A DNA stretch of 64,000 bases, taken from Verrucomicrobiales bacterium (GTDB lineage: Bacteria > Verrucomicrobiota > Verrucomicrobiia > Verrucomicrobiales > Akkermansiaceae). Positions 27,103-40,466 of this stretch are shown piece by piece. Position 1 is the stretch's first letter. Each line of letters starts with the position of its first letter. A model generated the notes under the pieces. It saw only the letters and a list, made by a program, of their open reading frames with translations, was not told the origin of the DNA and searched no databases. The stretch is taken from the NCBI GenBank assembly GCA_038235225.1, contig JBBSUD010000002.1, positions 16,270-80,269 on the forward strand, in the 5' to 3' direction. The translations under genes and the position numbers were made by a program.

Positions 27103-28130
27103 TCAGGCCGGCTTGCCGAGTAGGCGGGTGGTCCGTCTCACTCCGAAGCGGCAGGCCGCTTGTTTCCACACGAGTCGGATTTCGTAGGTGTTGCCAGCGG
27201 CCAACTGCGAACTCGCGAAGTTCAACTGTTGCCAGCCGACTCTCTCCGCAGCCGCTTGATCACAGCAATCATCGACGACTTGCTGCCACAGCTTCCAGAC
27301 AGCGACGTGAGAAATGCCGAGTTCCCCCCCGATGCCGCGTTGTAACTTGTCACTCAACTTCAGTCGGGTGACGACAGCTCGTCGGAAAATGGTTCGGGTG
27401 TGCTGCACCATACGCTGACTGCGGAGAGGTTGGGGGCGACGGTTCTTTATCCAGCGGGGGCCATCGGATCCGCCCAAGAACCGGATCATCACGTCCATGG
27501 AGACGCTGTTATTCCGCGTTCCCTCGATCTTGGCGGGATCAAACTCGGCTTCGGCGATCTTCGGTAGCACTGCGGCCAAACCTTCTCCCCGGACGAGCCG
27601 CGCCAATTGCTGAAACGATCCCGCGCGGACGACCACCCGAGGACTCCACCCTTTCGCCGCGAGAAGCTCCGCGTAGGTCCGGGAGAACTGTCCGCCTGGC
27701 ATCAGCTCTCCACAGGGGTGTTTGGAGAAGAGGCTATCGATTCCCATATCGCCTTTCCAAGCCAGCATGGGCGCGGACATTGAGTAGCCGATTTTCCCGA
27801 GCGGATGGCATTTCATCCCGGCGGGAGCGGGGTCTTGACGGATGATCGCAAAATCCAACCTGCCGTCGGCGACGCAACGCGCTGCATCAAGGGTGCGGGA
27901 TTGCCCCAACTCCAGGACTACCTCGCCGAGAGCGCTTCGGCTCCCAGCCAGCTTTGGCAAGACGAGCCAGTCCACCACACTCGCGGATGCACCGATGCGC
28001 ACTTTCATCGGTCGCCCGGACATAGATTCCCGGAAATCATCCAACTCCGAGAAGTGTCGGCGGATAGTCCCGGCGAGCTGATGCCCTTCACCCGTGATCT
28101 CGGTGGTTTGGGGCGGTGCTGGTATCGGCT
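27103..28130 (-). pseudogene. LysR-family regulator relic: N-terminal HTH lost, C-terminus fused in frame to an unrelated HTH-like fragment
   Basis: Linker/effector domain ITGEGHQLA...VRIGASASVVDWLVLPKL...GRLDFAIIR...SFQQLARLVRGEGLAAVLP, with an in-frame TGA just upstream of the linker. Confidence 0.7.
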
Positions 28131-28413: not shown

Positions 28414-30303
28414 GAGCCTGTCCCAGGAGCGGTGCTTTTTTATGATCGACGCAATAGGCGTTCAATCGAACACTTTCCGGATTCCGAATCGGTGAAAAGT
28501 TTGGCGAAAGTGGGGCTGGATTCGCTCATTTACGGGATTTTTCGCGTTTTCAGGTCCGGTGAGGACGCAGTGATCCCGGATCGACGGTGGCGATCCCGCT
28601 TCTGATGGCCCTGCGCTCCGCTATCAGCCCGCTCGCTCCATAGCCGCCCGCACCTTCTCTTCCTGTTCCGCTTTTCGCTTTTTCTCAGCCTCGGCCATGC
28701 GGGCTGCCACCCACAGGTTATGCGTGAGGACGGCCCAGCCGACGGCGACCTCCCGATGCTCGAAGCCTTTGGCTAACAGGGGACGACCGAGGAAACCATT
28801 CTTGAAAATGGCGATCCTTGCCTCGGTGCCGGCCCGGCGCTTGAGCCCCTCGCGGAAGCCTTTCTCGTTGACGAGCTTGTCGGAGAGTTCCTTCGGGTCG
28901 CGCGGACACAGGCCGTTGCCGATGCCTCGTTTTTCTAACATCGTCGTATTAACTTTACTGGCAAGACCGCGATCTCCCCAAACCTTGGCGATGGCGTGTT
29001 GTTGCTCGCCCACGAGCCGCTCAATGGCGGGCTTGATCAGCTTGGAGTCGCACGGGGTGTCTTGGTATAACTGGTAGTCGACGATGATGCCGTCGCCGTT
29101 TTCACCGAGCCAGAGTTTGTTTCCGAATTCGACTTTTGCACCAGCTTTGCCGCGTTGGATGACATTGATAGAGCTGTCATATAAACTCAGAATCTTGTCT
29201 TCATTGGCAACACTGCGACCACCAATGATGCGTTCGTGAGCTTGGTGGATGGCGGCAGGAAGTTGCTCCAACACGCTCTCAATGCGATGAACAATCTGTT
29301 GGGCTTGGCCTTCGCTCAGGTCGCTTTCCTCGCGGCGTGTCTTGAGTGCGTGGAGATGAGCCTTTGCGTGTTTGGCGATGGTATTGACGAAGGATTTCAT
29401 TTCGCGCAGCACTTTCTTGCGCTGTTTCTTGCCATCCTTCGCGTGAAATTTGGCGGTCATTTTCATGCACAACGTGTTCATTGTGCTGAGAAATGCGAGC
29501 GGTTCCTGAGGCATGCGGTTCTTGAGTCCATGCTGGCGGATGACAAGGGTGGCCTTCATCAAGGTGCGGGTGGCATCCCGCAATATCACCCAGTCCACGG
29601 GGAAATGAATGTCGGCCTTGAGGCAGGTGCTGTCGAAATAGATATTATCGAATCTGATAGGTTCTGCAAGTCCCAATGCTGCGGCAGGCGTCATTCCGGT
29701 GCTGTAATCCAGCACTTCTGATGCTAACAGCGCGGTGAGTTTCCCGTTGATCACCCGCACGGTTTGCTCGCTGGCCCAATGGCCGAAGCGGTCGCTGCTG
29801 CTCTTGGCGAACACCTTGACGCAATCGACCTCGCCGACATGCAGGAACCATTGAAGCAGCGAGCTGTCGGCGAGACGGGCGCAGAAGTCGCGGTGGTCGA
29901 GCCCCGTGAGTTGACGGGCGATGTTAGAGCGGAGTGCCAGGACGGTGCGAGAAGCGAAACGGTCGAGCTGTTTGGCACCGATGGCGTGGATATCGATCTG
30001 GCGCTCGGCGAGGACGAGGTTGAGGAATTCCTGCTCAAGGCCGGAGGAGCGGAGAATCGCGTCGATACGCTCGAACCGGGCGCGTTGCTCGCGGTAGTCC
30101 AAAGGACCGTAAACGCAAGGAAGTGCTGGACGAAGGGCGGGCTGGTAAGAGAAGGTGGTCACGGTTCGGGGCTGGATTTAGTCTGCTAACCAAATCATAG
30201 ACCCTGAATTTGGGGCATGGGAGCCTTTTTTGGCTCCCATGCCTTAATTTTTTGCCCGGCAAAGTGCTGTGCAACAAGGGGTTGTGGGGTTTGGGACAGG
30301 CTC
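28414..30303 (-). mobile_element. Intact 1890-bp insertion sequence (ISNCY family, probably ISDol1-like)
   Basis: 12-bp TIR GAGCCTGTCCCA (28414-28425) / TGGGACAGGCTC (30292-30303), 6-bp TSD TAGATA (28408-28413 and 30304-30309), and a single 512-aa DDE transposase. Confidence 0.9.
28624..30162 (-). CDS. DDE transposase
   Basis: YFDSTCLKADIHFPVDW, KILSLYD.S...I..GKAGAKVEFG, WGDRGLAS and RRAGTEARI.IFKN. Confidence 0.9.
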   Translation of the reverse strand: MTTFSYQPALRPALPCVYGPLDYREQRARFERIDAILRSSGLEQEFLNLVLAERQIDIHAIGAKQLDRFASRTVLALRSNIARQLTGLDHRDFCARLADSSLLQWFLHVGEVDCVKVFAKSSSDRFGHWASEQTVRVINGKLTALLASEVLDYSTGMTPAAALGLAEPIRFDNIYFDSTCLKADIHFPVDWVILRDATRTLMKATLVIRQHGLKNRMPQEPLAFLSTMNTLCMKMTAKFHAKDGKKQRKKVLREMKSFVNTIAKHAKAHLHALKTRREESDLSEGQAQQIVHRIESVLEQLPAAIHQAHERIIGGRSVANEDKILSLYDSSINVIQRGKAGAKVEFGNKLWLGENGDGIIVDYQLYQDTPCDSKLIKPAIERLVGEQQHAIAKVWGDRGLASKVNTTMLEKRGIGNGLCPRDPKELSDKLVNEKGFREGLKRRAGTEARIAIFKNGFLGRPLLAKGFEHREVAVGWAVLTHNLWVAARMAEAEKKRKAEQEEKVRAAMERAG

Positions 30304-30340: not shown

Positions 30341-31861
30341 TCACCGCTGCCATGCGATGATTTTTTTCATGATGGATGCGATGAATGGCGTGAGGCGGGC
30401 CTTGTTATAGAGATCCCCGGTTTTACGGATCGCCTCGGCTTGGGTGGGGTAGGGATGGATGCAGTTCGCGATTTTCCCGAGGCCGATGCCTTGGGTCATG
30501 GCAATGGAAATGGACGCAATCATATCCCCCGCGTTGGCGGCGACGATGGTGGCGCCGAGGATCTCGTCGCTGCCTTTCCTGACATGGATGCGGACGAATC
30601 CCTCGGTTTCGCCTTCGAGGATCGCTCGGTCCACACCGGACATCGGCTGGGTGAAGGTATCAACTTCGATGTCTTGTTCTCTGGCTTCTGCAGAGTTCAG
30701 CCCGATGCGTGCAAGCTCCGGCGAGGTATAAGTACACCATGGAATGACGAGGTCGCTATGTTTGACGCGACCGAAAAACAACGCATTGCGGACCACGGCG
30801 CGGGCCATGAAATCGGCGGCATGGGTGAATTGATAGGGAGAGCAGATATCGCCTGCGGCGAAGATGCGTTTGTGGGTGGTGCGGAAACGGTCGTCGATGG
30901 TCACGCCCTTTTTCGTGTGCTCCACACCGGCTTTTTCGAGATCGAGTCCTTCCACATTGGGTGCGCGGCCGGTCGCCACCAGGAGTTGATCCACGGTGAT
31001 GTCATAGCTGTCGTCTCCAGATTCCACGCGCATGCGGATGCCGCCATTGCCGCCGGGTGATAGTTTCAGTTTCCTGCCCGAGCCGAGGATTTTCACAGCA
31101 TCTCGGACAAGGTGCTTCTCGATAATTGCCGCGGCATCCGGCTCTTCCTTGTCGAGTATGCCGGATGAGGATTTGACGAGATAGGCTTCGGAACCGAGAC
31201 GCGCGAAAGCCTGCGCCATTTCGCAGCCGATAGGTCCCGCACCGATGACGCCGATGCGCTTCGGGCGTTCCGTTAGCGAGAAGATCGTTTCGTTGGTATG
31301 ATAGGAAACCGTGTCGAGTCCCTCGATCGGCGGCGCGGAAGCGCGTGCGCCGGTGCAGATGACAGCTTTGGAAAAATGCAGCTTCGCTCCGGCGACTTCG
31401 ATATGGGAGGAATCGATAAACTTTCCTTGGCCCAAGAATACGTAGATGCCGAGCGAGGTGTAGCGCTTCACCGAATCGTGGGGTGAAATGTCGCTGCGGA
31501 GCTTTCTCATGCGTTGCATGACTTTTGCGAAATCCACCTCGGTCCCTAGCGGCACGTTCACGCCGAAGCCCCCGGCATCTCGCACGGCGGCGGCGGCGCG
31601 GGCCGAGCTGATGATCGCCTTCGATGGCACGCAGCCGACATTCAGGCAGTCGCCACCCATGAACTGGCGCTCGATCAACGCGACCTTCGCCCCCAGCCCC
31701 GCCGCGGCGGATGCGGTGACAAGCCCGGCGGTGCCAGCACCTATGACGACGAGATCGTATTTCCCGGAAGGCACCGGGTTCGTCCAATCGGCGGGATGAA
31801 CGTTGGCCACGAGCTTCGCATTATACTCGTCATCGGGCTCCATACGGTGGGGCGTGCTCAT
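30341..31861 (-). CDS. MerA/LpdA-like FAD-dependent pyridine nucleotide-disulfide oxidoreductase (no C-terminal Cys-Cys)
   Basis: VIGAGTAG, GGDCLNVGCVPSK, GAGPIGCEMAQ, ATGRAPN, IFAAGD and IHPYPTQAE. Confidence 0.9.
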   Translation of the reverse strand: MSTPHRMEPDDEYNAKLVANVHPADWTNPVPSGKYDLVVIGAGTAGLVTASAAAGLGAKVALIERQFMGGDCLNVGCVPSKAIISSARAAAAVRDAGGFGVNVPLGTEVDFAKVMQRMRKLRSDISPHDSVKRYTSLGIYVFLGQGKFIDSSHIEVAGAKLHFSKAVICTGARASAPPIEGLDTVSYHTNETIFSLTERPKRIGVIGAGPIGCEMAQAFARLGSEAYLVKSSSGILDKEEPDAAAIIEKHLVRDAVKILGSGRKLKLSPGGNGGIRMRVESGDDSYDITVDQLLVATGRAPNVEGLDLEKAGVEHTKKGVTIDDRFRTTHKRIFAAGDICSPYQFTHAADFMARAVVRNALFFGRVKHSDLVIPWCTYTSPELARIGLNSAEAREQDIEVDTFTQPMSGVDRAILEGETEGFVRIHVRKGSDEILGATIVAANAGDMIASISIAMTQGIGLGKIANCIHPYPTQAEAIRKTGDLYNKARLTPFIASIMKKIIAWQR

Positions 31862-32469
31862 GTTTCCGTTATGTTCGGTCCTTCGGAATCATCAATTTTT
31901 CCCGACAGCGCGCGCTTGGCGATTTTGGTGATCCAGACGGTTACGATGATGGTGGCGACCAACCCGATTCCATAAAACACCTTCTGTGAGGTCGTCGTTT
32001 CGCTGGCGGCAACTTTAGCGATCGAGCCGAGATAAACATAAAGAATAGTCACCGGAAGCATGCCGATCCACGATGCACCGACGGCCTGCCAAAAGCCGAT
32101 CTTCGTGAGGCCGAGCGCGTAGTTGAGAAATGTGAATGGGAAAACGGGCGATAGCCTTAGCAGCATAATCATCTTCCAGCCTTCGCGACCGACCGCTTCG
32201 TCGATTGCCTTGAATTTCGGCTTATCCTTTAGTTTTTTATCGATCCAATTCCGCAGTGCGAACCGACCTAGCAGGAAGCTCACCGCGGCGGCGAGAGTTG
32301 AGGCGACGGAAACGAGCAGGGTTCCCTCTACCAGTCCGAAAATCGCCCCGGCGGAGAGTGTCAGGATACTGCCCGGCACGAATGCGACGGTTGCGCCCAC
32401 GTAAAGTAGGACAAAAAGCACGGGCGCCCAGATGCCTTGGGCCTGGACCCAATCGAGGATGTGTTGCAT
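31858..32469 (-). CDS. TVP38/TMEM64 (DedA/VTT) family membrane protein
   Basis: VPGSILTLSAGAIFG...LLRLSPVFPFTFLNYALGLTKI...IGMLP.TILYVYLG. Confidence 0.92.
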   Translation of the reverse strand: MQHILDWVQAQGIWAPVLFVLLYVGATVAFVPGSILTLSAGAIFGLVEGTLLVSVASTLAAAVSFLLGRFALRNWIDKKLKDKPKFKAIDEAVGREGWKMIMLLRLSPVFPFTFLNYALGLTKIGFWQAVGASWIGMLPVTILYVYLGSIAKVAASETTTSQKVFYGIGLVATIIVTVWITKIAKRALSGKIDDSEGPNITET

Positions 32470-32475
32470 GCGGAG

Positions 32476-33777
32476 TTATAGGTAAGTTATGGATCGAACC
32501 CGCGCGATCCACCGGGGCGGGACGCTCAGGAAATAGGCAGCAAGCATCAATTGATGTCGAAGGAATGTGCGCACGATGCCGCCCGTTTCCCAGCGCCGCG
32601 GCGATGTCAAAGCTGCCTGCGGCGCCGTCCGGACCGGGCCAAGCCGCTTGAGCCGGCGGACCAGATGGAGGTCCTCCATCGCCGGCCAATCGGGAAATCC
32701 TCCGAGGTGGCGGAAGATGCTCCGGCGGATGAACAACCCTTGGTCGCCATAAGGCATACCTAGCAGATCGCAGCGCAGATGCACGAGTGACTCGATCAAG
32801 GGCGCGGCAGCGAGATCTCCCGCAAGCTGGAATCGGAATGCGCCTGCGCTCGTCCCGGGCTTCTGCAATATCCGGCCCACTACTTCACCATAGTCTAGCG
32901 GCGGCAAAGTATCCGCATGGAGAAACAACAGGAACTCGCCCGTCGCCATGGCGGCGGCCACATTCATTTGCGTGGACCGCCCTTTCGGAGTTTCGATCAC
33001 GCGGACGCCCGCTTTTCCGGCTATCGCTTTGGTTTGGTCCGTGCTGCCTCCGTCCGCGATGATGATTTCGTGCGGCGGCGATTCCAAGAGCCGCTCGAGA
33101 AGTATGGAAATCCAAGTAGCCTCATTCAGTGTGGGAATGATGACAGAGAGCGAATTTCCCACGGTGAGCGCGGCATTTGCAGCCGGGAGATCGTCCGGCG
33201 TGTCCACATCCGGGCGGGCGTCCAAAAGAGCGACATGCGCTCCGCACGCGGCGGCGGCAGCCAGCGATTGATTTAGAACCTGCGGTCCGCCCCATTCGAT
33301 GTTAGTGAAAATTCCGGGACACGGTTTATTCAGACCGACGAGATAATAGCCGCCATCCGCCGCGGGGCCGAAAACCAGATCCGCGCGTTCCAGCGCTTGG
33401 AATGCCTTCGCGAGAAGCGGCTCGTCGATCGACGGGCAGTCGGTTCCGGTGATGACCACGCGGCGGGCGCCATCGGCAAACGCCTGCTCCACTGCGGCGT
33501 GCAATCGGGCTCCCAAATCGCCATTTCCCTGCACCCGGCAATCGATATCTCCCAACCATATCTTTCCTTCGACGGCGGTCCCGCCTTCCAAGCGAATCTG
33601 CAAGCGGGTGCCGGGATGCATCATCGCGTAAGAAGAGGCCCGACCTATGGCATGCCGTGCGAGGCGGTCGTGGAAATCCGCAGCACCAATCGTGCCCAGC
33701 GCGGGGATCAATCGTGTCTTGTTCCGGCCTTCACAGGGAAGGCGCGTCATCACGATGATGGTGTCTTGCCGCTTCAC
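32476..33777 (-). CDS. Fused arsenosugar-cluster transferases: TIGR04282 (DUF2064) plus TIGR04283 (GT2)
   Basis: N-half GRNKTRL...QGNGDLGARL...TGTDCP...GPAADGGYYLVGL...DVDTPDDL. C-half SVIIPTLNE..DGGSTD..GRSTQMN..LFLHADT..PYGDQGLFIRR..MED..SPRRWE. The GTG start at 33777 overlaps the DUF547 stop. Confidence 0.88.
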   Translation of the reverse strand: MKRQDTIIVMTRLPCEGRNKTRLIPALGTIGAADFHDRLARHAIGRASSYAMMHPGTRLQIRLEGGTAVEGKIWLGDIDCRVQGNGDLGARLHAAVEQAFADGARRVVITGTDCPSIDEPLLAKAFQALERADLVFGPAADGGYYLVGLNKPCPGIFTNIEWGGPQVLNQSLAAAAACGAHVALLDARPDVDTPDDLPAANAALTVGNSLSVIIPTLNEATWISILLERLLESPPHEIIIADGGSTDQTKAIAGKAGVRVIETPKGRSTQMNVAAAMATGEFLLFLHADTLPPLDYGEVVGRILQKPGTSAGAFRFQLAGDLAAAPLIESLVHLRCDLLGMPYGDQGLFIRRSIFRHLGGFPDWPAMEDLHLVRRLKRLGPVRTAPQAALTSPRRWETGGIVRTFLRHQLMLAAYFLSVPPRWIARVRSITYL

Positions 33778-34565
33778 TGTTTGTTGAGATCCCAATTGTA
33801 GTCGGTATATTTGATGCCGAGTCCGCCGCGGAGGATGACTTTGCCTTGTTCATCGTTGAAAAGCGGTGCCACGAATTTTTCGACAGAGCCGGACTTGCCG
33901 GTAAAGTCCTGTTTGAACCACTTGAAGATCGGCGAGAGATAGAGCACTCCGCTTTTAGCATCGACTCGGTTCTTCGAGCTATCGCCCAAGAAAATCCTGC
34001 CTTGCTCATTGAGTTGAGGATCGAGCTTGGAGGCTTGGTAGGCTTCCGCACGCAGGGACGGACAACCGATCGATGCACAATTAATGGCGAAGTGGATGCG
34101 CGGGTCATTGAACTTCGGTCGGAGCAGATCGTTCTCGATATAGTCGAGGGTTTGCTTCTTTCCGAACAGCCGGACGACGGGTTGCTTCCATGGCCCGCTG
34201 AAAAGGCCGCCGATGTCTTTGATGCTGTCCACCGGATAGTGATCGATTACGAGCTTGAGAGTCGCGGCGTTATAGAGATTGATGAGATATGCCATCCGCT
34301 CATCGCGGGGCCAGCCGTTGAAGCTGGATTCGGACACGGCAGCAAGCGAATCCAGATAAACATCGAGCGGTTTTGGATTCCTTTTCAATCCTGCGTAATC
34401 GACCTTCTTGCCTTTCACATGCGCCCCGAGAATCAAAGTTAAGGCGGAGTGCGATCGGTCGAAATCCTGGCGGGTGTTGGCAATGGTTTGGAGCTCCTGT
34501 GCCTGCGATACCACGGTGAGTATGGGGAACAAAGCGAGAGCGGTGGCGAATGTGAGATTTTTCAT
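33774..34565 (-). CDS. DUF547 domain secreted protein
   Basis: Signal peptide; AYLINLYNA.T, LDYIENDLLRP, DPRIHFAINCASIGCP and YLSPIFKWFKQDF. Confidence 0.9.
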   Translation of the reverse strand: MKNLTFATALALFPILTVVSQAQELQTIANTRQDFDRSHSALTLILGAHVKGKKVDYAGLKRNPKPLDVYLDSLAAVSESSFNGWPRDERMAYLINLYNAATLKLVIDHYPVDSIKDIGGLFSGPWKQPVVRLFGKKQTLDYIENDLLRPKFNDPRIHFAINCASIGCPSLRAEAYQASKLDPQLNEQGRIFLGDSSKNRVDAKSGVLYLSPIFKWFKQDFTGKSGSVEKFVAPLFNDEQGKVILRGGLGIKYTDYNWDLNKQ

Positions 34566-34571
34566 GATGAT

Positions 34572-35531
34572 TCAGGCATTAGCTGTTTCCAGCGCGCCGC
34601 TGCAACTGCTGCCGTGGCCGGCGGTGCAGCCGAAGCAATGATTTGCGGTGAGGATCGGGAGGTCCGCCATCGAGTCCGGAGTGATGTCCCAGAGATAAAG
34701 TTTTTGGTCATTGCGCTTTTGTTGCATGCGGAGCATTTGGTTGAAATCGCAGTCGAAGACCTCGCCCTCGTAACCGATATTGATGGTGGACCGGCACATA
34801 AGTCCCCCGACCGTGGCGGGGTTGAAACTATTCGCCAGCAATTCCATATAGTAATCCCACTGTCCGTGCTCGCGGAGGTCCACCGCGAAGCGGGCGATCG
34901 GGAGATTCGTGATCGCAAAGAGGCGGGTGAAAACGATGCCGTAGCGTTTCTTTAGCTCGTCCTTGTAGTCCGCTTCAAGTTCTGCTTGGTCGGGCGGCAG
35001 CTTCGCGCCGATGGGATTGTAAACGAGGGTCAGCGGGAGGCGGGTGCCATAGCCAGCGGCATTGAGTTTCTTCAGCGCGGAAATGCTCTTTTGGAAAACT
35101 CCGTTGCCGCGCTGGGAATCGACATTGTCTTCCAGATAGCAGGGCAGGGATGCGACAACTTCCACTTCATGCCGGGCGAGAAACTCCGGCAGATAGGCAT
35201 GGCTTTTCGTCTCGATGATCGTGAGATTGTTTCGGTCGATGACATGCGAACCGACCGAGCGGGCCGTCTCAACGAAATACCTGAAATGCTCGCTGATTTC
35301 AGGCGCGCCGCCGGTGATGTCCACGGTCGCGGGCCGATGTTCCACAATCCAGGCGCCGACTTTGCGGGCAGTTTCCCGATCCATCATCTCGGTGCGGGTC
35401 GGGCCGGCATCGACGTGGCAGTGGGTGCAGGTCTGGTTGCATTTGCGACCGACATTGATCTGCAGCGTCTCGAAGCGGCCGCGATCCAGCGGAACTTTGT
35501 TTTGGTGGAGAAGTGTCTGGAAGTTATTCAT
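34572..35531 (-). CDS. arsS: Arsenosugar biosynthesis radical SAM protein ArsS (TIGR04167-type)
   Basis: TLQINVGRKCNQTCTHCHVDAGP (CxxxCxxC), DITGGAPE, ASLPCY, LVYNP, GLMCR, DCDFNQML and HCFGCTAGHGSSC. Confidence 0.92.
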   Translation of the reverse strand: MNNFQTLLHQNKVPLDRGRFETLQINVGRKCNQTCTHCHVDAGPTRTEMMDRETARKVGAWIVEHRPATVDITGGAPEISEHFRYFVETARSVGSHVIDRNNLTIIETKSHAYLPEFLARHEVEVVASLPCYLEDNVDSQRGNGVFQKSISALKKLNAAGYGTRLPLTLVYNPIGAKLPPDQAELEADYKDELKKRYGIVFTRLFAITNLPIARFAVDLREHGQWDYYMELLANSFNPATVGGLMCRSTINIGYEGEVFDCDFNQMLRMQQKRNDQKLYLWDITPDSMADLPILTANHCFGCTAGHGSSCSGALETANA

Positions 35532-35581: not shown

Positions 35582-36409
35582 CTATTCGGATATGTTTTTC
35601 CGGAGCGGCGGGATGCGGGTGAATGCTTTTGCAGATGGCGGATCCTCATCGAGTTTCGAGAAGACGCGCTGGCAGGAATCGCTCTCGAAGAAGGCGTCGC
35701 AGCAGGCGGATTCGAGGATTTCTCCGTGGCCGTTGTCCGTGCAGAGGCAGGCGATCCAGTCGGTCAGGCGGCGGGCTTGGTCGAGATTGTGGGTGACGAG
35801 GATGACGCTGCGGGTGGCTCGCATACTCAGAATCCCCGCCTCCACGGCTTCCGCAGCGCGCGGATCGAGGGCGCTCGTCGGTTCGTCCATGAGCACGATT
35901 TCCGGATCGACGGCCAAGGTGCGGGCAAGACATAGCTGCTGCTGCTGGCCGATGGACAGACGGCGCGCGGGTTCCGTTAGCCGGTCCTTCACCTCATCCC
36001 AGAGAGCGGCTTCGCGGAGCGATTTTTCGATAAGCTCGCCGCGGTCGCGTTTGTTTAGTCGGCGGAGCCGACGGGCACCGAAGATGACGTTATCTGCGAT
36101 GCTGGCGGGAAACACGGCGGGCTGTTGGAATATCATGCCGATGCGCTCGCGGAGGGCGTCGGGATCGACGGCGCGGTCCAGGATTTCGCAGCCATGGAAG
36201 CGGATGCTGCCGGTGACCCGGAAGCCGGGCTGCAGCTCCAGCAGTCGGTTGATGGATCGCAGCAAAGTGCTCTTGCCCGCGCCGGACGGGCCGAGGATGC
36301 CGAGCACTTGTCCGGCTTCGAGCGTTAGATTGACCGACCCGATGATGGCGCGGCCGCCCACGGAGACGCCGAGGTTGCGGATTTCCAGGATGGGGGATCG
36401 ATCAGACAT
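35582..36409 (-). CDS. pstB: PstB-like ABC transporter ATPase with Cys-rich C-terminus
   Basis: GPSGAGKSTLLRSINRL, IGMIFQQP, LREAALWDEVKDRL, LSIGQQQ.LCLAR, MDEPTSALDP and VTHN. Confidence 0.85.
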   Translation of the reverse strand: MSDRSPILEIRNLGVSVGGRAIIGSVNLTLEAGQVLGILGPSGAGKSTLLRSINRLLELQPGFRVTGSIRFHGCEILDRAVDPDALRERIGMIFQQPAVFPASIADNVIFGARRLRRLNKRDRGELIEKSLREAALWDEVKDRLTEPARRLSIGQQQQLCLARTLAVDPEIVLMDEPTSALDPRAAEAVEAGILSMRATRSVILVTHNLDQARRLTDWIACLCTDNGHGEILESACCDAFFESDSCQRVFSKLDEDPPSAKAFTRIPPLRKNISE

Positions 36410-37256
36410 GGTTGGCGGCATCGTGGAATTTCCTGCGGAAGGGTATAGCTAACAGACTTGCCAGGGTAACCAAGGAAACAAGCACCAGCGCGGTGCCCCA
36501 GAGATTGGTCCGGCTGCTTTCCTGAAACGAATCCTGGGCGAGGATGAATATGTGATAGGGAAGCGCGAGTATGGGTTGTTCCTTGATGCCGATGGGGATG
36601 GTGGCGCCGGAAAAGATGGTGGCGACGAAAAGGATCGGCGCCGTTTCCCCGGCGGCTCTGGCGAGGCCGAGCAAGGTGCCGCTAACGAGCGAGGAAGCGC
36701 AGTGTGGCATGATGATACTTCGGACGATCCGTCCGCGGCGCAATCCCAATGCGAACGCGCTATCGAGATACCGCGGCTCGATCGCGCCGATCCGCTGGGC
36801 GGCCGCTATGGCGATGGTGGGAACGATCATGATGCCTAGCAGGATGCCGCCCGCGAGCCAGGATTTCCCCCAGTCGAAGATGCGGGTGAAGACTAGCAGA
36901 CCGAGGATACCGAAGATGATGGAAGGTATCGCATTGAATAACTGAAGCACGAACCCTAACAGGCGCTGGCGGCGGGATCCGAGTGGCAGGAGAAATGAAT
37001 GGACCAATGCAAGTGAGATGGCGATGGGCAGCGCGACCGCCGCGGCGGTGGAGATGAGGATGATGGTGCCCACGATCTGCCAGAGAATGCCGCCGCTCGC
37101 ACCGGCTTCCGAGGTGGCGGTGGAAATGAAGTTCCAATCCACCACGTCCCGGCCTTTCCAAATGAGGACTGCCGCTACCGTGAGGGAAAACAACAACACC
37201 ACCGATGCGGCGGCAGCGGTGAGGATCGACGTCAATGATGCTAACGATTTTCTCAT
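36402..37256 (-). CDS. pstA: PstA-like ABC permease
   Basis: IPSIIFGILGLLVF, LAGGILLGIMIVPTI, LGLARAAGETAPILF and LPYHIFILA. Confidence 0.88.
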   Translation of the reverse strand: MRKSLASLTSILTAAAASVVLLFSLTVAAVLIWKGRDVVDWNFISTATSEAGASGGILWQIVGTIILISTAAAVALPIAISLALVHSFLLPLGSRRQRLLGFVLQLFNAIPSIIFGILGLLVFTRIFDWGKSWLAGGILLGIMIVPTIAIAAAQRIGAIEPRYLDSAFALGLRRGRIVRSIIMPHCASSLVSGTLLGLARAAGETAPILFVATIFSGATIPIGIKEQPILALPYHIFILAQDSFQESSRTNLWGTALVLVSLVTLASLLAIPFRRKFHDAANHV

Positions 37257-38167
37257 GAGGAAATTCTCCCGATGCGGCGCAGCAGGGTGCCGGTGGCGTC
37301 GAAAAGCGCGGATAGAACAAGTAGAATCAGTCCGAGAGAAAGCATGGCTCCCCAATGCAGCGGCGTGCCGAGCGCAATGTGGGTTTCGGGTCCGCCGAGC
37401 TTGCTGGTAAGTGTTTGGCCGGGCTCGATGAGCGGCCGGAGGCTGAAGAGTTTTTCGGGAAACTGATTGTCCAATCGGCCCACCACGAGGAAGACGGCGA
37501 TCGTTTCACCTAGAGCGCGGCCGGTGCCTAACAAGGCAGCGCCGGTGATGCCGGGCCATGCCTGGGGAAGCACCACATGTATTACTGTTTCCGCACGGCT
37601 CAGCGCCAGACCGCGGGCGGCGATGCGCTGCTCCTGCGGGACTCCGCGGAGTGCGTCTTCGGAGAATGTGGTGACGGTTGGGAGTATCATCACCGCGAGC
37701 AGGACGCCGGCGGTTAGAAGCATGTCGCCACTGAGTATATCGAATGCGATTAGCCGCTCGGCCATCCACTCGCGCAGGAAAATGACACCGAAAAGGCCGT
37801 AAACAACCGATGGCACGGCAGCCAAAAACTCGACGGCGGTCTTCACCGGCAACCGCAGCCGGGGAGTGAGAAATTCGGATATGAAAACCGCTGCCGCGAT
37901 GCCGACCGGTGCGGCGAGGACGAGGGCGATCACCGCGACGACGAGACTGCCATAGATCATGCCCGCGGCACCGAAGATGTTGTCCCGATAGAACCACTCG
38001 CGTCCTTTGACCAGCTCGCTACCGATCTTGGAAATCGCGGGCCACGCCTGCTGGATCCAGAGAGCGAGAACCGCGAGCAGGCCGAGGAAAAATCCGCTGG
38101 AAATCGTCCATACGCCGACAGTGACGGCATCGGGCCGCCGCCTCGCTGTCAGCTCGTGAGCGCTCAT
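37253..38167 (-). CDS. pstC: PstC-like ABC permease
   Basis: MIYGSLVVA..APVGIAAAVFISE, VEFLAAVPSVVYGLFG, AVMILPT, GRALGETIAV and TLTSKL. Confidence 0.88.
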   Translation of the reverse strand: MSAHELTARRRPDAVTVGVWTISSGFFLGLLAVLALWIQQAWPAISKIGSELVKGREWFYRDNIFGAAGMIYGSLVVAVIALVLAAPVGIAAAVFISEFLTPRLRLPVKTAVEFLAAVPSVVYGLFGVIFLREWMAERLIAFDILSGDMLLTAGVLLAVMILPTVTTFSEDALRGVPQEQRIAARGLALSRAETVIHVVLPQAWPGITGAALLGTGRALGETIAVFLVVGRLDNQFPEKLFSLRPLIEPGQTLTSKLGGPETHIALGTPLHWGAMLSLGLILLVLSALFDATGTLLRRIGRISS

Positions 38168-39021
38168 TGTTTCTTAAGATCCGCTAGAGAAAGATAGCCG
38201 TGCTTGTGAACCAGCTTCTGACCTTCCGGGCCTAGCAGGAAATCGATCAGTGCCTTGGCATGACCGGCTGGCTCGCCATTGGTGATGACCCATAGCGAAC
38301 GGCTCAGCGGATAGTCACCCGCGAAGATATGTGCTGCGGTCGGTTCTACGATTTTGTCGTCATCAAGTTCCACGGATAGGGCGAAAACCTTGATTCCATC
38401 GACCCACGCGGCGGACAGTTGGGAAAGCGCGCCGCGGCTGCCGGCCACCTTGTTGCGCGCTTCCTCATTCGCTCCGACTTCTGGGTGCGCGACGGACGGC
38501 GCTTTGTCGGCCTTGCCGTAGAGCCAGTTCGCGAAGACCTCCCAAGTGCCGCGTCCCGGCTCCTTGTTGAAAAATGCGATCCTGCGGTCGGGGCCGCCGA
38601 TCTGCTTCCAGTTGGTTACTTTTTTCTCGTAGATCCGTTGCATGGTTTTGCGGGAAATCGATTTCACCCCGCCATCCCAGACATCTTTGGAAACGATCAT
38701 TGCCACCGCGTCCTCGCCGATTTTCACCGGTGTGAAAACGATGTTCGGATACTTCATATGGTCGGCTTCATTGAGCGGGCGGGATGACATGGCCATATCC
38801 ACCCGGCCGTCGCCGAGTGCGGAAATCCCGCCGGAACTGCCGCCTTGGGTATCCACTTGGATGGTGATGTTCTTTTCCTTTTTAAGGATTTCCGCAGCTT
38901 CGGAAACCACGGGATTCACCGTGGTCGATCCATTGACGCGAACGATGTCTTGTGCGGAGACAAACGTACTCGCTGTGGCGAAAGCGAATGCGAGTAAAGG
39001 GAGGGATTGCATGAATTTCAT
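38164..39021 (-). CDS. pstS: PstS-like periplasmic oxyanion-binding protein
   Basis: Signal peptide; GSTTV, GGSSGGI, MSSRPL, IGEDAVA, IYEKKVTNWKQIGGPD and DYPLSRSLW. Confidence 0.85.
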   Translation of the reverse strand: MKFMQSLPLLAFAFATASTFVSAQDIVRVNGSTTVNPVVSEAAEILKKEKNITIQVDTQGGSSGGISALGDGRVDMAMSSRPLNEADHMKYPNIVFTPVKIGEDAVAMIVSKDVWDGGVKSISRKTMQRIYEKKVTNWKQIGGPDRRIAFFNKEPGRGTWEVFANWLYGKADKAPSVAHPEVGANEEARNKVAGSRGALSQLSAAWVDGIKVFALSVELDDDKIVEPTAAHIFAGDYPLSRSLWVITNGEPAGHAKALIDFLLGPEGQKLVHKHGYLSLADLKKQ

Positions 39022-39040
39022 CAGTTGAATCGAGTTGATC

Positions 39041-40204
39041 TCAGCAGCAGCCGCCGGCGTCGCAGCAGTTCGATGCGGCGGTGGTGACATGATAATCGCG
39101 GCCCTTGGTTTCCTGCGGGTGGCGGACAGCGGTGCGGTTGCAATCGAAGGGCGCCGCGTCTGCCAGCGGTATGTCTGTTAGCGGATCGATGAAAGAGAAG
39201 TAGCCGGAATACGGCGCTTTTTTGTATAAGTTGTATGTCTTGTCGCAGACCGCATAGCGCTTGCCGCGCTCCATGGCGTGGCCGTCGTCAACGAGGACTT
39301 TCAGGAAAGGGCCGTTGTAAATGACCGCCTGATTCCGCTCGAAGCACGGACCTTGTTTTCCTTTCCACGCTTGGATCGTGACTGAGCGGAACTCGATCCC
39401 TTCGACCGTTTGCCATGGCGTTTCGTCGCGCTTCAGGATTTCGATTCCATGAAATCCCGCATCTGCAAACGCTTTGAGAAACCCTTCCTCGGTATAGGCG
39501 CCGCTGATGCAGCCGCTCCAGAGATGGGGATCGTCCTGGAGATGGCTCGGGATTTCCTCGTCGGATACGATGTCGGAAATCACCGCCCGGCCGCCAACTT
39601 TCAGGACGCGGAAGATCTCCTCGAAAAGCTGACGCTTCAGGTGGTTCTCCACGAGATTGAGCACGCAGTTAGAGACTACGGCGTCGATGCTGTCGCTGGC
39701 GACGAGCGGGTGCTTCACGCGGAGATCGGCGGCGAGCGCGTCGGCCGCGAGATAGGAATTCGCGCTGGAAATCGGATTCCGGGCGAGTTCGCGGTCGAGA
39801 ATTTCCAAGTCGAGCGCGAGATCTTGGATGCGGCCCTTGCGGAACTCGACATTCGCGTGGCCGATATTTTCCGCGACGATCGGCGCATTCCGGCGGGCGA
39901 CTTCCAGCATGTCGTCGGTCATGTCCACGCCGATGACGCGGCCGGTCGGGCCGACGACCTGGGACGCGATGAAGCAGATTTTCCCGGTCCCCGAGCCGAG
40001 ATCGAGCACGGTCTCGCCGGGATGCAGGTGCTTCGACGGGTCGCCGCAGCCGTAGTCCTTTTCGATGACCTCGGCCGGAATGGCCTTGAGAAACTGCGGA
40101 TCGTAATCGACCGGGCAGCACAAAGCGGCCTCGGGGGCGTGGGCGGCGGCGGCGTAGCGATCGCGGGTGGCGGCTTCGGACGAGGTGCTGGCTGGGGCGA
40201 TCAT
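39041..40204 (-). CDS. arsM: Arsenite S-adenosylmethionine methyltransferase (ArsM)
   Basis: LCCP, YGCGDP, VLDLGSGTG, VIGVDMT, VSNCVLNL and WSGCISGA, i.e. the four conserved ArsM Cys positions. Ends in CCDAGGCC. Confidence 0.9.
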   Translation of the reverse strand: MIAPASTSSEAATRDRYAAAAHAPEAALCCPVDYDPQFLKAIPAEVIEKDYGCGDPSKHLHPGETVLDLGSGTGKICFIASQVVGPTGRVIGVDMTDDMLEVARRNAPIVAENIGHANVEFRKGRIQDLALDLEILDRELARNPISSANSYLAADALAADLRVKHPLVASDSIDAVVSNCVLNLVENHLKRQLFEEIFRVLKVGGRAVISDIVSDEEIPSHLQDDPHLWSGCISGAYTEEGFLKAFADAGFHGIEILKRDETPWQTVEGIEFRSVTIQAWKGKQGPCFERNQAVIYNGPFLKVLVDDGHAMERGKRYAVCDKTYNLYKKAPYSGYFSFIDPLTDIPLADAAPFDCNRTAVRHPQETKGRDYHVTTAASNCCDAGGCC

Positions 40205-40466
40205 GGTTGTGGGAAAATCTGGCCGGGATGCTGGCTTGGGCATCGGTTCGCTTGGGATAACGAAATCTCCAGATATAACGGATTTGCGTGCGCAAAAATC
40301 GGATTGCTCGCTGGAGGATCGCCATGCGTCCCGGTCGGCAGGAAATCTGAGAGCACGCGAACGCCCGCTCTATTCCTCGAAGATCCGGTTTGCCGCTTGT
40401 CGGCGGGATTTGTCCGGAGACTCCGCCGGGCGTGGACACGCGGATACCGGTGTGGAATCGTGGAAG

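What the first reader, a model, noticed from the sequence alone, without database searches (positions are those of the whole stretch)
35672..35749. PstB paralogue carries a five-cysteine cluster (CLC...CC...C) at its C-terminus
Seen: C-L-C-T-D-N-G-H-G-E-I-L-E-S-A-C-C-D-A-F-F-E-S-D-S-C, five Cys in 26 residues, and the ABC signature reads LSIGQ. Known: canonical PstB ends ...[11 protein letters not shown]...TEDYITGRYG without this cluster, and vicinal Cys pairs/triads are the classic As(III)-binding motif (ArsR, ArsD, ArsA, ArsM). Inference: the ATPase is allosterically gated by cytoplasmic As(III), giving feedback control of arsenic uptake. This is direct sequence evidence that the transporter is specialised for arsenic.
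Basis: partly seen in the sequence, partly recalled or inferred. Interest (0 to 1): 0.75.

Follow-up and report, generated by a model that had tools for sequence, protein, structure and literature searches.

The report
Cysteine cluster in arsenic-linked PstB ATPase
The ATP-hydrolysing subunit of a phosphate-type uptake pump encoded among arsenic genes carries five conserved cysteines that ordinary versions lack; they most likely form a built-in sensor for toxic trivalent arsenic, or else hold a metal cluster, and I found no published description of them.

Summary
The 279-aa PstB-like ATPase (35582-36421, minus strand) has Cys225, 227, 240, 241 and 250, and its signature motif reads LSIGQ.

The cluster is not chance:
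- All five Cys are 97-99% conserved in the 120 closest homologues (57-100% identity).
- They are absent (0/81) from canonical PstBs, including the genome's own two phoU-linked copies.

The ATPase belongs to a strongly separated Pst-like transporter family:
- Its PstS has an invariant remodelled anion loop (FFNKEPGRGTWEV).
- The membrane Arg/Glu anion site is conserved.
- The Walker-A cysteine is lost.
- Its neighbours are arsenic genes: arsM-pstSCAB-arsS operons, or ArsR regulators with a C-terminal GCC motif.
- ArsM or ArsS lies beside 8 of 18 Cys-cluster loci and 0 of 54 canonical loci. All 11 distinct arsM/arsS-linked PstBs found here have the cluster.

However, 21 sister lineages in the same family lack the cluster, so it is a dispensable add-on.

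The ligand is unresolved. I favour binding of trivalent arsenic that tunes ATPase activity (about 0.45). An Fe-S cluster (precedent: DppD/DppF/OppD) or a zinc site remain serious rivals. Whether the pump carries arsenate or phosphate is also open. I rate it a new variant of a known kind.

The parts
35582..36421 (-). PstB-like ABC ATPase of the 'Cys5' subfamily (279 aa). Walker A, Q-loop, signature, Walker B, D-loop and H-loop are all intact.
   Evidence: TIGR00972 scores 259 bits, below its 343 cut-off; PF00005. The AF2 model has pLDDT 89.8 and its best Foldseek match is E. coli PstB 9k3s/9k3x.
35672..35749 (-). Five-cysteine cluster: C225-L-C227 on the last-but-one beta strand, C240-C241 at the strand/helix junction, and C250 at the start of the final helix.
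   Evidence: 97-99% conserved in the subfamily and 0/81 in canonical PstB. C240 is the most dispensable.
36266..36292 (-). Walker A GPSGAGKST. The Cys that is 99% conserved in canonical PstB (GPSGCGKST) is replaced by Ala.
   Evidence: Ala, Val or Gly in every member of the arsenic-linked family.
35945..35959 (-). ABC signature LSIGQ (LS[VIT]GQ across the family; LSGGQ in canonical PstB).
36402..37256 (-). PstA-like permease. The likely start is the MRKSL Met; the longest ORF runs to 37355. Anion-site R233/E237 match E. coli R220/E224.
37253..38167 (-). PstC-like permease. The Arg/Glu pair equivalent to E. coli R237/E241 is conserved.
38164..39090 (-). PstS-like periplasmic binding protein (signal peptide; likely start at 39021). 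Remodelled anion loop FFNKEPGRGTWEV where relatives of known structure have R-E-D-G-S-G-T.
   Evidence: The loop is essentially invariant (two single-residue variants) in every family member examined.
39041..40243 (-). ArsM-type As(III) S-adenosylmethionine methyltransferase, first gene of the operon, with a Cys-rich C-terminus CCDAGGCC.
   Evidence: Best NCBIfam hit is NF040538 at 331 bits, below every cut-off. Orthologues at 63-82% identity lie upstream of pstS in L087, L106, L107, L108 and L109.
34572..35531 (-). ArsS arsenosugar-type radical SAM enzyme, 50 nt downstream of pstB.
   Evidence: TIGR04167 at 427 bits (cut-off 300) and DUF3641.
30341..34565 (-). Rest of the operon: DUF547 (33774-34565), fused TIGR04282/TIGR04283 transferases (32476-33795), VTT/DedA membrane protein (31858-32469) and FAD disulfide oxidoreductase NF004991 (30341-31861).

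Best explanation
The gene encodes the ATPase of a binding-protein-dependent, Pst-like oxyanion importer that belongs to the arsenic regulon. It is not the Pho regulon's PstB. In one large clade of this transporter family, five residues on the last beta-hairpin and the two C-terminal helices of the nucleotide-binding domain have been replaced by cysteines. In ordinary PstB these positions are a conserved Phe, a Tyr/Leu, a variable residue, a conserved helix-capping Thr and an Asp/Asn. I propose that the five thiols converge into one pocket at the membrane-distal end of the domain. There they would bind trivalent arsenic (arsenite, or the methylated As(III) species made by the adjacent ArsM). 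Occupancy would change the packing of the C-terminal helices against the catalytic core and so tune ATP hydrolysis. The most likely effect is to throttle import when free As(III) builds up (trans-inhibition). What is shown: the cluster, its conservation, its restriction to this clade, the arsenic gene context, the intact catalytic motifs and the conserved membrane anion site. What is inferred: that the thiols are close together in space, the identity of the ligand, the direction of the effect, and whether the cargo is arsenate or phosphate.
For: (1) The cluster is a conserved, discrete feature: 97-99% Cys in 120 homologues, 0/81 in canonical PstB, and only one full-length representative among 1.84e9 protein clusters. 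(2) Arsenic context. arsM-pstSCAB-arsS occurs in the window and in L087/L152, L106, L107/L153 and L109, and pstB-arsS in L111, L114, L118 and L146; in L089 arsM and arsS lie 4-7 kb upstream of pstS; arsM-pstSCAB occurs in L108. ArsM or ArsS lies beside 8/18 Cys5 loci versus 0/54 canonical loci, Fisher p=3.7e-6. All 11 distinct arsM/arsS-linked PstBs found carry the cluster. (3) The wider family is controlled by ArsR regulators with an invariant C-terminal LGCCxFxF plus an N-terminal Cys, a typical three-thiol As(III) sensor arrangement. (4) Motif style. C-x-C and C-C-x8-C resemble the As(III) sites of ArsR (CVC), ArsD and AfArsR (CC...C) and ArsP (CSC); this is from my own knowledge. 17/120 members add a flexible N-terminal MSDCC pair, which is usual for soft-metalloid handling and unusual for Fe-S sites. 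(5) The family has removed the Walker-A Cys that is 99% conserved in canonical PstB (A/V/G instead), and the 'DEPC' Cys present in 44% of canonical PstBs is always Thr here. This fits selection against arsenite poisoning of the active site, with thiols kept only at a distal site. (6) The arsM/arsS-embedded operons have no ArsR nearby, and the window's genome has no GCC-type ArsR. Post-translational control would fill that gap. (7) The cluster was gained or lost at least 2-4 times within the family, as expected of a regulatory add-on. (8) Canonical PstB has no regulatory domain (PMC12976172), so this would be its functional substitute. AF2 confidence falls to 72-74 over residues 241-260 despite a 118-sequence alignment, which is compatible with ligand-dependent packing.
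Against: There is no biochemical evidence. Thiol-thiol distances could not be measured, because the structure tool returns no coordinates. Four Cys (225, 227, 241, 250) are the invariant core, and four is the number expected for a tetrahedral Zn or Fe-S site rather than As-S3. Replacing two aromatic residues (Phe225, Tyr227) opens a cavity larger than a single As atom needs. ABC importer ATPases with a C-terminal [4Fe-4S] cluster are already known. About half of the Cys5 loci with usable flanks show no arsenic gene (L112, L113, L116, L123, L135, L148). 21 related genomes run the same ArsR-linked transporter without the cluster. Four Cys5 loci also have ArsR, so the cluster does not simply replace it.
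Confidence: 0.45

Rival explanations
1. The cysteines ligate an iron-sulfur cluster ([4Fe-4S] or [2Fe-2S]). The cluster would stabilise the C-terminal part of the ATPase and make transporter assembly or activity depend on redox state or oxygen, as in the peptide importers DppBCDF and OppABCD.
For: E. coli DppD and DppF and M. tuberculosis OppD each bind a [4Fe-4S] cluster through four C-terminal Cys, and it is essential for complex stability (PMC12136057). Dpp/Opp ATPases are among the Foldseek matches of the model. Four Cys form the invariant core and C240 is occasionally lost. Two aromatic residues are replaced and the hairpin loop is longer, which could make room for a cluster. The neighbour ArsS is itself an Fe-S enzyme.
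Against: There is no oligo_HPY/Dpp-type C-terminal domain and no motif similarity; the Cys lie inside the NBD core hairpin. There is no CP or CxxC spacing. A fifth Cys is conserved at 97%, and some members carry an extra N-terminal CC tail. The cluster was lost repeatedly without loss of the transporter. This reading does not explain the tight association with arsM/arsS.
Confidence: 0.27
2. The cysteines form a structural Zn(Cys)4 site that merely replaces the small hydrophobic core holding the C-terminal helices. It has no sensing role.
For: There is a four-Cys invariant core. The positions are buried hydrophobic or capping residues in canonical PstB. Zn(Cys)4 sites are the commonest use of such clusters in cytoplasmic proteins (my own knowledge).
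Against: It offers no reason for the link to arsM/arsS, for the fifth conserved Cys, or for the repeated loss or gain. Canonical PstB folds without a metal.
Confidence: 0.12
3. The thiols act as a redox or persulfide switch (disulfide, polysulfide or sulfane-sulfur sensing) that couples transport to thiol redox state.
For: Exported tandem-rhodanese proteins are recurrent neighbours (L091, L119, L121, L134, L143, L149, L171). Thiol-disulfide oxidoreductases occur in some clusters: the FAD disulfide reductase in the window and HEAT-AhpC in L108. Vicinal Cys pairs readily form disulfides.
Against: The rhodaneses carry signal peptides and so are periplasmic, whereas PstB is cytoplasmic. Rhodanese neighbours also accompany family members without the cluster (L149, L171).
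Confidence: 0.1
4. The cluster has no function; it is lineage-specific compositional drift.
For: Related lineages function without it.
Against: Conservation is 97-99% across sequences that are otherwise only about 57% identical, with five coordinated replacements of otherwise conserved residues.
Confidence: 0.02

Closest known systems
Canonical PstB of the PstSCAB phosphate importer (E. coli; PDB 9k3s, 9k3x, 9k3y)
   Same: Same fold (TM-score 0.92-0.95 normalised to the target, 39% identity). Same operon partners pstS, pstC and pstA. Catalytic motifs intact. The PstA/PstC Arg-Glu anion site is conserved.
   Different: Scores below the TIGR00972 cut-off. No phoU partner. Walker-A Cys lost. LSIGQ instead of LSGGQ. 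The invariant C-terminal TEDYITGRFG is replaced. Five extra Cys. The family is separated from canonical PstB by a long, 100%-supported branch.
ArsA, the As(III)/Sb(III)-stimulated ATPase of the ArsAB pump
   Same: An ATPase whose activity is allosterically set by a metalloid bound to a three-Cys site (my own knowledge). This is the functional analogy proposed here.
   Different: Unrelated fold family (ArsA/GET3, not ABC). ArsA drives efflux, not binding-protein-dependent import, and As(III) activates ArsA. No homology was tested or claimed.
As(III)-binding thiol sites of ArsR, ArsD and ArsP
   Same: Short C-x-C and C-C-xn-C motifs; arsenic gene neighbourhood.
   Different: Those sites sit in repressors, chaperones and permeases. 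No sequence homology. Binding here is untested.
[4Fe-4S]-containing ABC importer ATPases DppD, DppF and OppD
   Same: A Cys cluster at the C-terminal end of a type I importer ATPase, needed for complex integrity.
   Different: Their four Cys lie in an appended oligo_HPY-type C-terminal domain. Here there is no extra domain and two of the Cys are within the core beta-hairpin.
Trans-inhibited ABC importers ModBC and MetNI
   Same: Cytoplasmic product or cargo binds the ATPase and stops import. This is the regulatory logic proposed here.
   Different: They use a separate C-terminal regulatory domain and bind the cargo itself. Here the site would be built into the NBD core and would bind the reduced form of the cargo, or a stress signal.
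pst operons inside bacterial arsenic islands (next to aio/ars genes)
   Same: Pst-type transporters co-localised with arsenic genes (review PMC7533571 listed; my own knowledge of Li et al. 2013).
   Different: Those PstBs were not examined individually. In the 50%-identity representative search, no protein outside the Cys5 group carried more than two of the five Cys. No Cys cluster or remodelled PstS loop has been described for them, as far as my literature searches show.

Membership tests
PstB equivalog (NCBIfam TIGR00972) | Whole-protein score at or above the curated cut-off (343.2 bits) | tested here: not met
   259.1 bits. The genome's two canonical copies score 388-389 bits.
PstB equivalog (NCBIfam TIGR00972) | ABC ATPase motifs intact (Walker A/B, Q-loop, signature, D-loop, H-loop) | tested here: met
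   GPSGAGKST, Q99, LSIGQ, LMDEP, SALD and H211 are invariant or nearly so in the subfamily.
PstB equivalog (NCBIfam TIGR00972) | Encoded with pstS, pstC and pstA | tested here: met
   pstS-pstC-pstA-pstB with overlapping stop/start codons. Same order in all related loci.
PstB equivalog (NCBIfam TIGR00972) | Pho-regulon wiring: phoU neighbour and conserved C-terminal TEDYITGRFG | tested here: not met
   The canonical T253, G259, F261 and G262 are lost. phoU lies beside 33/54 canonical loci. Among Cys5 loci only L134 has a PhoU-LMWPc fusion; the 33% hit of that query in L109 falls on its LMWPc gene. The genome's canonical copies lie in pstA-pstB-pstB-phoU.
Three-thiol As(III) binding site (ArsR/ArsD/ArsA type) | At least three Cys sulfurs within bonding distance of one As atom | not testable with these tools
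   An AF2 model was obtained but no coordinates are exposed. Only secondary-structure placement is known.
Three-thiol As(III) binding site (ArsR/ArsD/ArsA type) | Binds As(III)/Sb(III) with a functional response | not testable with these tools
   Needs biochemistry.
Fe-S ABC importer ATPases (DppD/DppF/OppD) | Appended C-terminal oligo_HPY-type domain carrying four Cys ligands | tested here: not met
   No PF08352 or other C-terminal domain hit. The protein ends 29 residues after C250.
Trans-inhibited importers with a regulatory domain (ModC, MetN, MalK) | Separate C-terminal regulatory domain of about 100 aa | tested here: not met
   279 aa in total. The model shows only the NBD plus two short helices and a disordered tail.
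Arsenosugar-type ars cluster (ArsM + ArsS + TIGR04282/04283) | ArsS (TIGR04167) and the associated transferases above cut-off in the same operon | tested here: met
   ArsS 427/300 bits, TIGR04283 232/182 and TIGR04282 186/134. ArsM is below all NCBIfam cut-offs, but the four catalytic-type Cys motifs (LCC, GCG, SNCV, GCISGA) can be read in the sequence.

The most novel reading that the evidence does not exclude
The operon encodes a deliberate arsenic-acquisition system. A PstS variant would capture arsenate and the pump import it for conversion by ArsM and ArsS into organoarsenicals. The ATPase would sense free trivalent arsenic directly through a thiol pocket built into its catalytic domain and shut the pump. 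That would be the first dedicated bacterial arsenate importer, and the first ABC importer regulated by a metalloid site inside the NBD core.
Probability: 0.2. Interest if true: 0.85.

Novelty: new variant of a known kind. Interest (0 to 1): 0.62.

Why it matters
Bacteria are thought to take up arsenate only by accident, through phosphate transporters. A Pst-type importer that is fixed inside arsM-arsS operons, has a remodelled binding protein and carries a thiol cluster in its ATPase raises a concrete question. Do some bacteria acquire arsenic on purpose for organoarsenical (arsenosugar or arsenolipid) synthesis, or do they switch to an arsenic-proof phosphate pump under arsenic stress? Either answer bears on arsenic and phosphorus cycling. 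Mechanistically, canonical PstB has no regulatory domain. A ligand site built into the NBD core would be a new way of regulating a type I ABC importer. The family also gives annotators clean markers (KEPGRGT in PstS; GPSGAGKST and C-x-C...CC...C in PstB) for telling these systems apart from true phosphate transporters in genomes and metagenomes.

Tried and rejected
- The genome-contig scan with the whole protein was swamped by canonical PstB.
- I tried to get contexts for other PstB-like paralogues that carry 2-3 Cys at overlapping positions (P0122, P0167). The contigs were too short to be informative.
- Taxon names for subfamily members were not on record. Named members are all Verrucomicrobiota (Luteolibacter, Terrimicrobiaceae, Verrucomicrobiales).
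- Literature searches for a Cys-rich PstB, or for a pst transporter in arsS clusters, found nothing relevant. The Streptomyces arseno-organic cluster has a phosphonate-type transporter, not a Pst-type one.
- I considered that the cluster might mark all arsenic-linked Pst transporters. This is rejected, because 21 ArsR-linked relatives lack it.
- I considered a single origin with no reversals. This is rejected, because the tree built without the trait columns needs at least 2-4 changes.

Full report
OBSERVATION. The minus-strand ORF 35582..36421 encodes a 279-aa ABC ATPase. Residues 225-250 read C-L-C-T-D-N-G-H-G-E-I-L-E-S-A-C-C-D-A-F-F-E-S-D-S-C, which maps exactly onto 35672-35749, and the signature motif is LSIGQ (35945-35959). 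Random placement of the protein's seven Cys would give five within 26 residues with p of about 0.004. The decisive evidence is comparative.

CONSERVATION AND SPECIFICITY.
- The 120 closest homologues among 5.8 billion proteins are 57-100% identical to the query. They keep Cys at the five columns in 119, 119, 116, 117 and 118 sequences, against a mean column identity of 53%.
- The few exceptions are truncated or frameshifted sequences, or lack only C240. The invariant core is therefore C225, C227, C241 and C250.
- In 81 canonical PstBs from many phyla the same columns are Phe (85%), Tyr/Leu, variable, Thr (93%) and Asp/Asn, never Cys. These include the two tandem canonical copies in this genome (pstA-pstB-pstB-phoU on contig C19).
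- An exhaustive HMMER scan of 1.84 billion 50%-identity representatives returns one representative of this subfamily (434 bits), then falls to 268 and about 226 bits. Only that representative and one fragment have all five Cys.
- All catalytic motifs are intact, so this is a working ATPase and not a decayed paralogue.

STRUCTURE. An AlphaFold2 model built on 118 sequences has mean pLDDT 89.8, and its best structural matches are E. coli PstB 9k3s and 9k3x. C225 and C227 lie on strand 222-227. C240 ends the partner strand 233-240. C241 starts a short helix, and C250 starts the last helix (248-259). Confidence falls to 72-74 over residues 241-260. No coordinates are exposed, so the distances between the sulfurs could not be tested. 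That the five positions changed together, and that in canonical PstB they are residues expected to pack the C-terminal helices on the hairpin, suggests but does not prove that they are close in space.

WHAT THE TRANSPORTER IS.
- The gene lies in a translationally coupled operon: arsM-like methyltransferase, pstS, pstC, pstA, pstB, arsS (TIGR04167, 427 bits), DUF547, fused TIGR04282/04283 transferases, a VTT/DedA protein and an FAD disulfide oxidoreductase.
- The same arsM-pstSCAB-arsS core recurs in two further genomes of the same genus (L087/L152 and L107/L153), in L106 and in L109. pstB-arsS is seen on the shorter contigs L111, L114, L118 and L146. In L089 arsM and arsS lie 4-7 kb upstream of pstS. 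L108 has arsM-pstSCAB without arsS. L109 also has an LMW-phosphatase (ArsC-type) gene and a molybdopterin oxidoreductase between arsM and pstS.
- A DNA-pattern scan for the Cys motif in metagenome contigs gave 39 further loci, all of them PstB-like.
- Among Cys-cluster loci with at least 5 kb of flank, 8/18 have ArsM or ArsS, against 0/54 canonical pstB loci (Fisher p=3.7e-6). When ArsR and LMW-phosphatase are included, the counts are 11/18 against 5/54.
- Conversely, phoU follows 33/54 canonical pstB genes. Among the Cys-cluster loci it appears only as a PhoU-LMWPc fusion in L134.

THE WIDER FAMILY. An order-level genome search found 21 more genomes with PstBs 49-58% identical to the query. 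A tree built only from residues 1-219, with the trait columns excluded, places these and all Cys-cluster proteins in one clade. That clade has 100% support and sits on a long stem, away from canonical PstB. Every member of this family shares four features:
- a PstS whose anion loop reads FFNKEPGRGTWEV (essentially invariant), where relatives of known structure have R-E-D-G-S-G-T;
- conserved PstA/PstC Arg-Glu pairs equivalent to the E. coli phosphate site R220/E224 and R237/E241;
- a Walker A without the canonical Cys (GPSG[AVG]GKST);
- LS[VIT]GQ and DEPTSALD motifs.

Fourteen of the 21 lie next to an ArsR-family regulator with an invariant C-terminal LGCCxFxF and an N-terminal Cys. Yet these 21 PstBs lack the five-Cys set. 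They have Phe, Leu or Arg at 225 and mostly Gly, Ser, Ala or Cys at 227, and one (L154) has a variant arrangement, CIC...C...C..C. On the tree the trait needs at least 2-4 changes. The cluster is therefore a clade-level, evolutionarily labile add-on to an arsenic-regulon transporter. It is not a requirement for transport. All 11 distinct arsM/arsS-embedded operons found here have it. None of those operons has an ArsR nearby, and this genome has no GCC-type ArsR.

MECHANISM. I favour (0.45) a thiol pocket that binds trivalent arsenic and tunes ATPase activity, most simply by slowing import when As(III) or methyl-As(III) accumulates. The support is as follows:
- the arsenic context;
- ArsR/ArsD/ArsP-like C-x-C and CC...C spacing (from my own knowledge);
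- extra N-terminal MSDCC tails in 17/120 members;
- removal of thiols close to the active site;
- absence of a transcriptional arsenic sensor in the arsM/arsS operons;
- the labile, regulatory-looking distribution;
- the fact that canonical PstB has no regulatory domain (PMC12976172).

The main rival (0.27) is an Fe-S cluster. E. coli DppD and DppF and M. tuberculosis OppD bind [4Fe-4S] through four C-terminal Cys (PMC12136057). The invariant core here is four Cys, and two aromatic residues have been removed. Against it, there is no Dpp-type domain or motif and it gives no account of the arsM/arsS link. A structural Zn site (0.12), a redox or persulfide switch suggested by recurrent but periplasmic rhodanese neighbours (0.10), and drift (0.02) complete the list.

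SUBSTRATE. The conserved membrane Arg/Glu site points to a tetrahedral oxyanion. The invariant remodelled PstS loop points to altered recognition. Arsenate import that feeds ArsM and ArsS, and an arsenic-induced, arsenate-excluding phosphate importer, both fit. ArsR-derepressed expression in the cluster-less relatives fits the second reading slightly better. The operon position between arsM and arsS, and the ArsC-type gene in L109, fit the first. I regard this as open. The Cys cluster itself is not evidence about the cargo.

NOVELTY. Full-text searches found no description of a Cys-rich PstB or of a Pst-type transporter in arsS clusters. NCBIfam has no model for the subfamily; its best hit is below cut-off. 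I rate this a new variant of a known kind: a regulated type I ABC importer, possibly metalloid-sensing. It is interesting mainly because it turns two questions into concrete experiments. One is whether bacteria deliberately take up arsenic. The other is whether an ABC importer can be controlled through a site in the NBD core.

Noticed in passing
L119:6825-7169 (-); also L121, L134, L143 and L154-L173: ArsR-family regulators next to this transporter family all end in an invariant (L/F)(D/N)xGCCxFxF motif and have one conserved N-terminal Cys. This is a distinct ArsR subtype whose vicinal pair resembles C-terminal As(III)/MAs(III) sensor sites.
   Followed up: partly
P0057; L116, L119, L140, L143 (PstB N-termini): 17 of 120 Cys-cluster PstBs start with MSDCCPPP or a similar motif, a second vicinal Cys pair on a flexible N-terminal tail. 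Another clade has a single Cys in a P-C-E-K motif. The window's protein has neither.
   Followed up: partly
L143:1288-2226, L119:7188-8162, L134:1262-2335, L091:11020-11973, L149:13310-14206: An exported tandem-rhodanese protein of about 310 aa (64-86% identical between loci) is a recurrent neighbour of the transporter in loci without arsS. Its role is unknown; periplasmic sulfur transfer or thioarsenate handling are possibilities.
   Followed up: partly
L134:7596-8693 (+): A fusion of a PhoU domain pair with a low-molecular-weight phosphatase/ArsC-type domain lies next to a phosphate-porin O/P homologue and the Cys-cluster pst operon.
   Followed up: no
L119:8326-9115 (+): An exported dual-specificity-phosphatase-like protein with an HCHHGKHR (CX5R) motif lies beside the ArsR/rhodanese/pst locus. 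It is a candidate periplasmic arsenate reductase or phosphatase.
   Followed up: no
window 39041-40243 (-): The ArsM-like methyltransferase scores below every NCBIfam ArsM cut-off. It is closest to the arsinothricin-type model NF040538 (331/500 bits), not the arsenosugar ArsM model (134/400), although ArsS passes its own cut-off.
   Followed up: no
window 28624-30162 (-) and 27103-28044 (-): A 512-aa ORF with no Pfam hit lies just past the end of the ars operon. It is followed by an ORF whose N-terminal half matches only the LysR substrate-binding domain and whose remainder looks unrelated. This may be a mobile-element or rearrangement boundary of the cluster.
   Followed up: no
L115, L132, L145: Three metagenome contigs show an arsS fragment followed by a truncated pstS that runs straight into the 3' part of pstB. 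They look like deletion remnants of the operon.
   Followed up: no
L109:4027-7102: Between arsM and pstS this locus carries an 873-aa molybdopterin oxidoreductase (Arr/Aio-like class) and an LMW-phosphatase (ArsC-type) gene. Arsenic redox enzymes are thus inserted into the same operon.
   Followed up: no
G000:C19:1392-2919 (L001/L002): The genome's canonical phosphate system has two tandem pstB genes (388-389 bits each) followed by phoU.
   Followed up: partly
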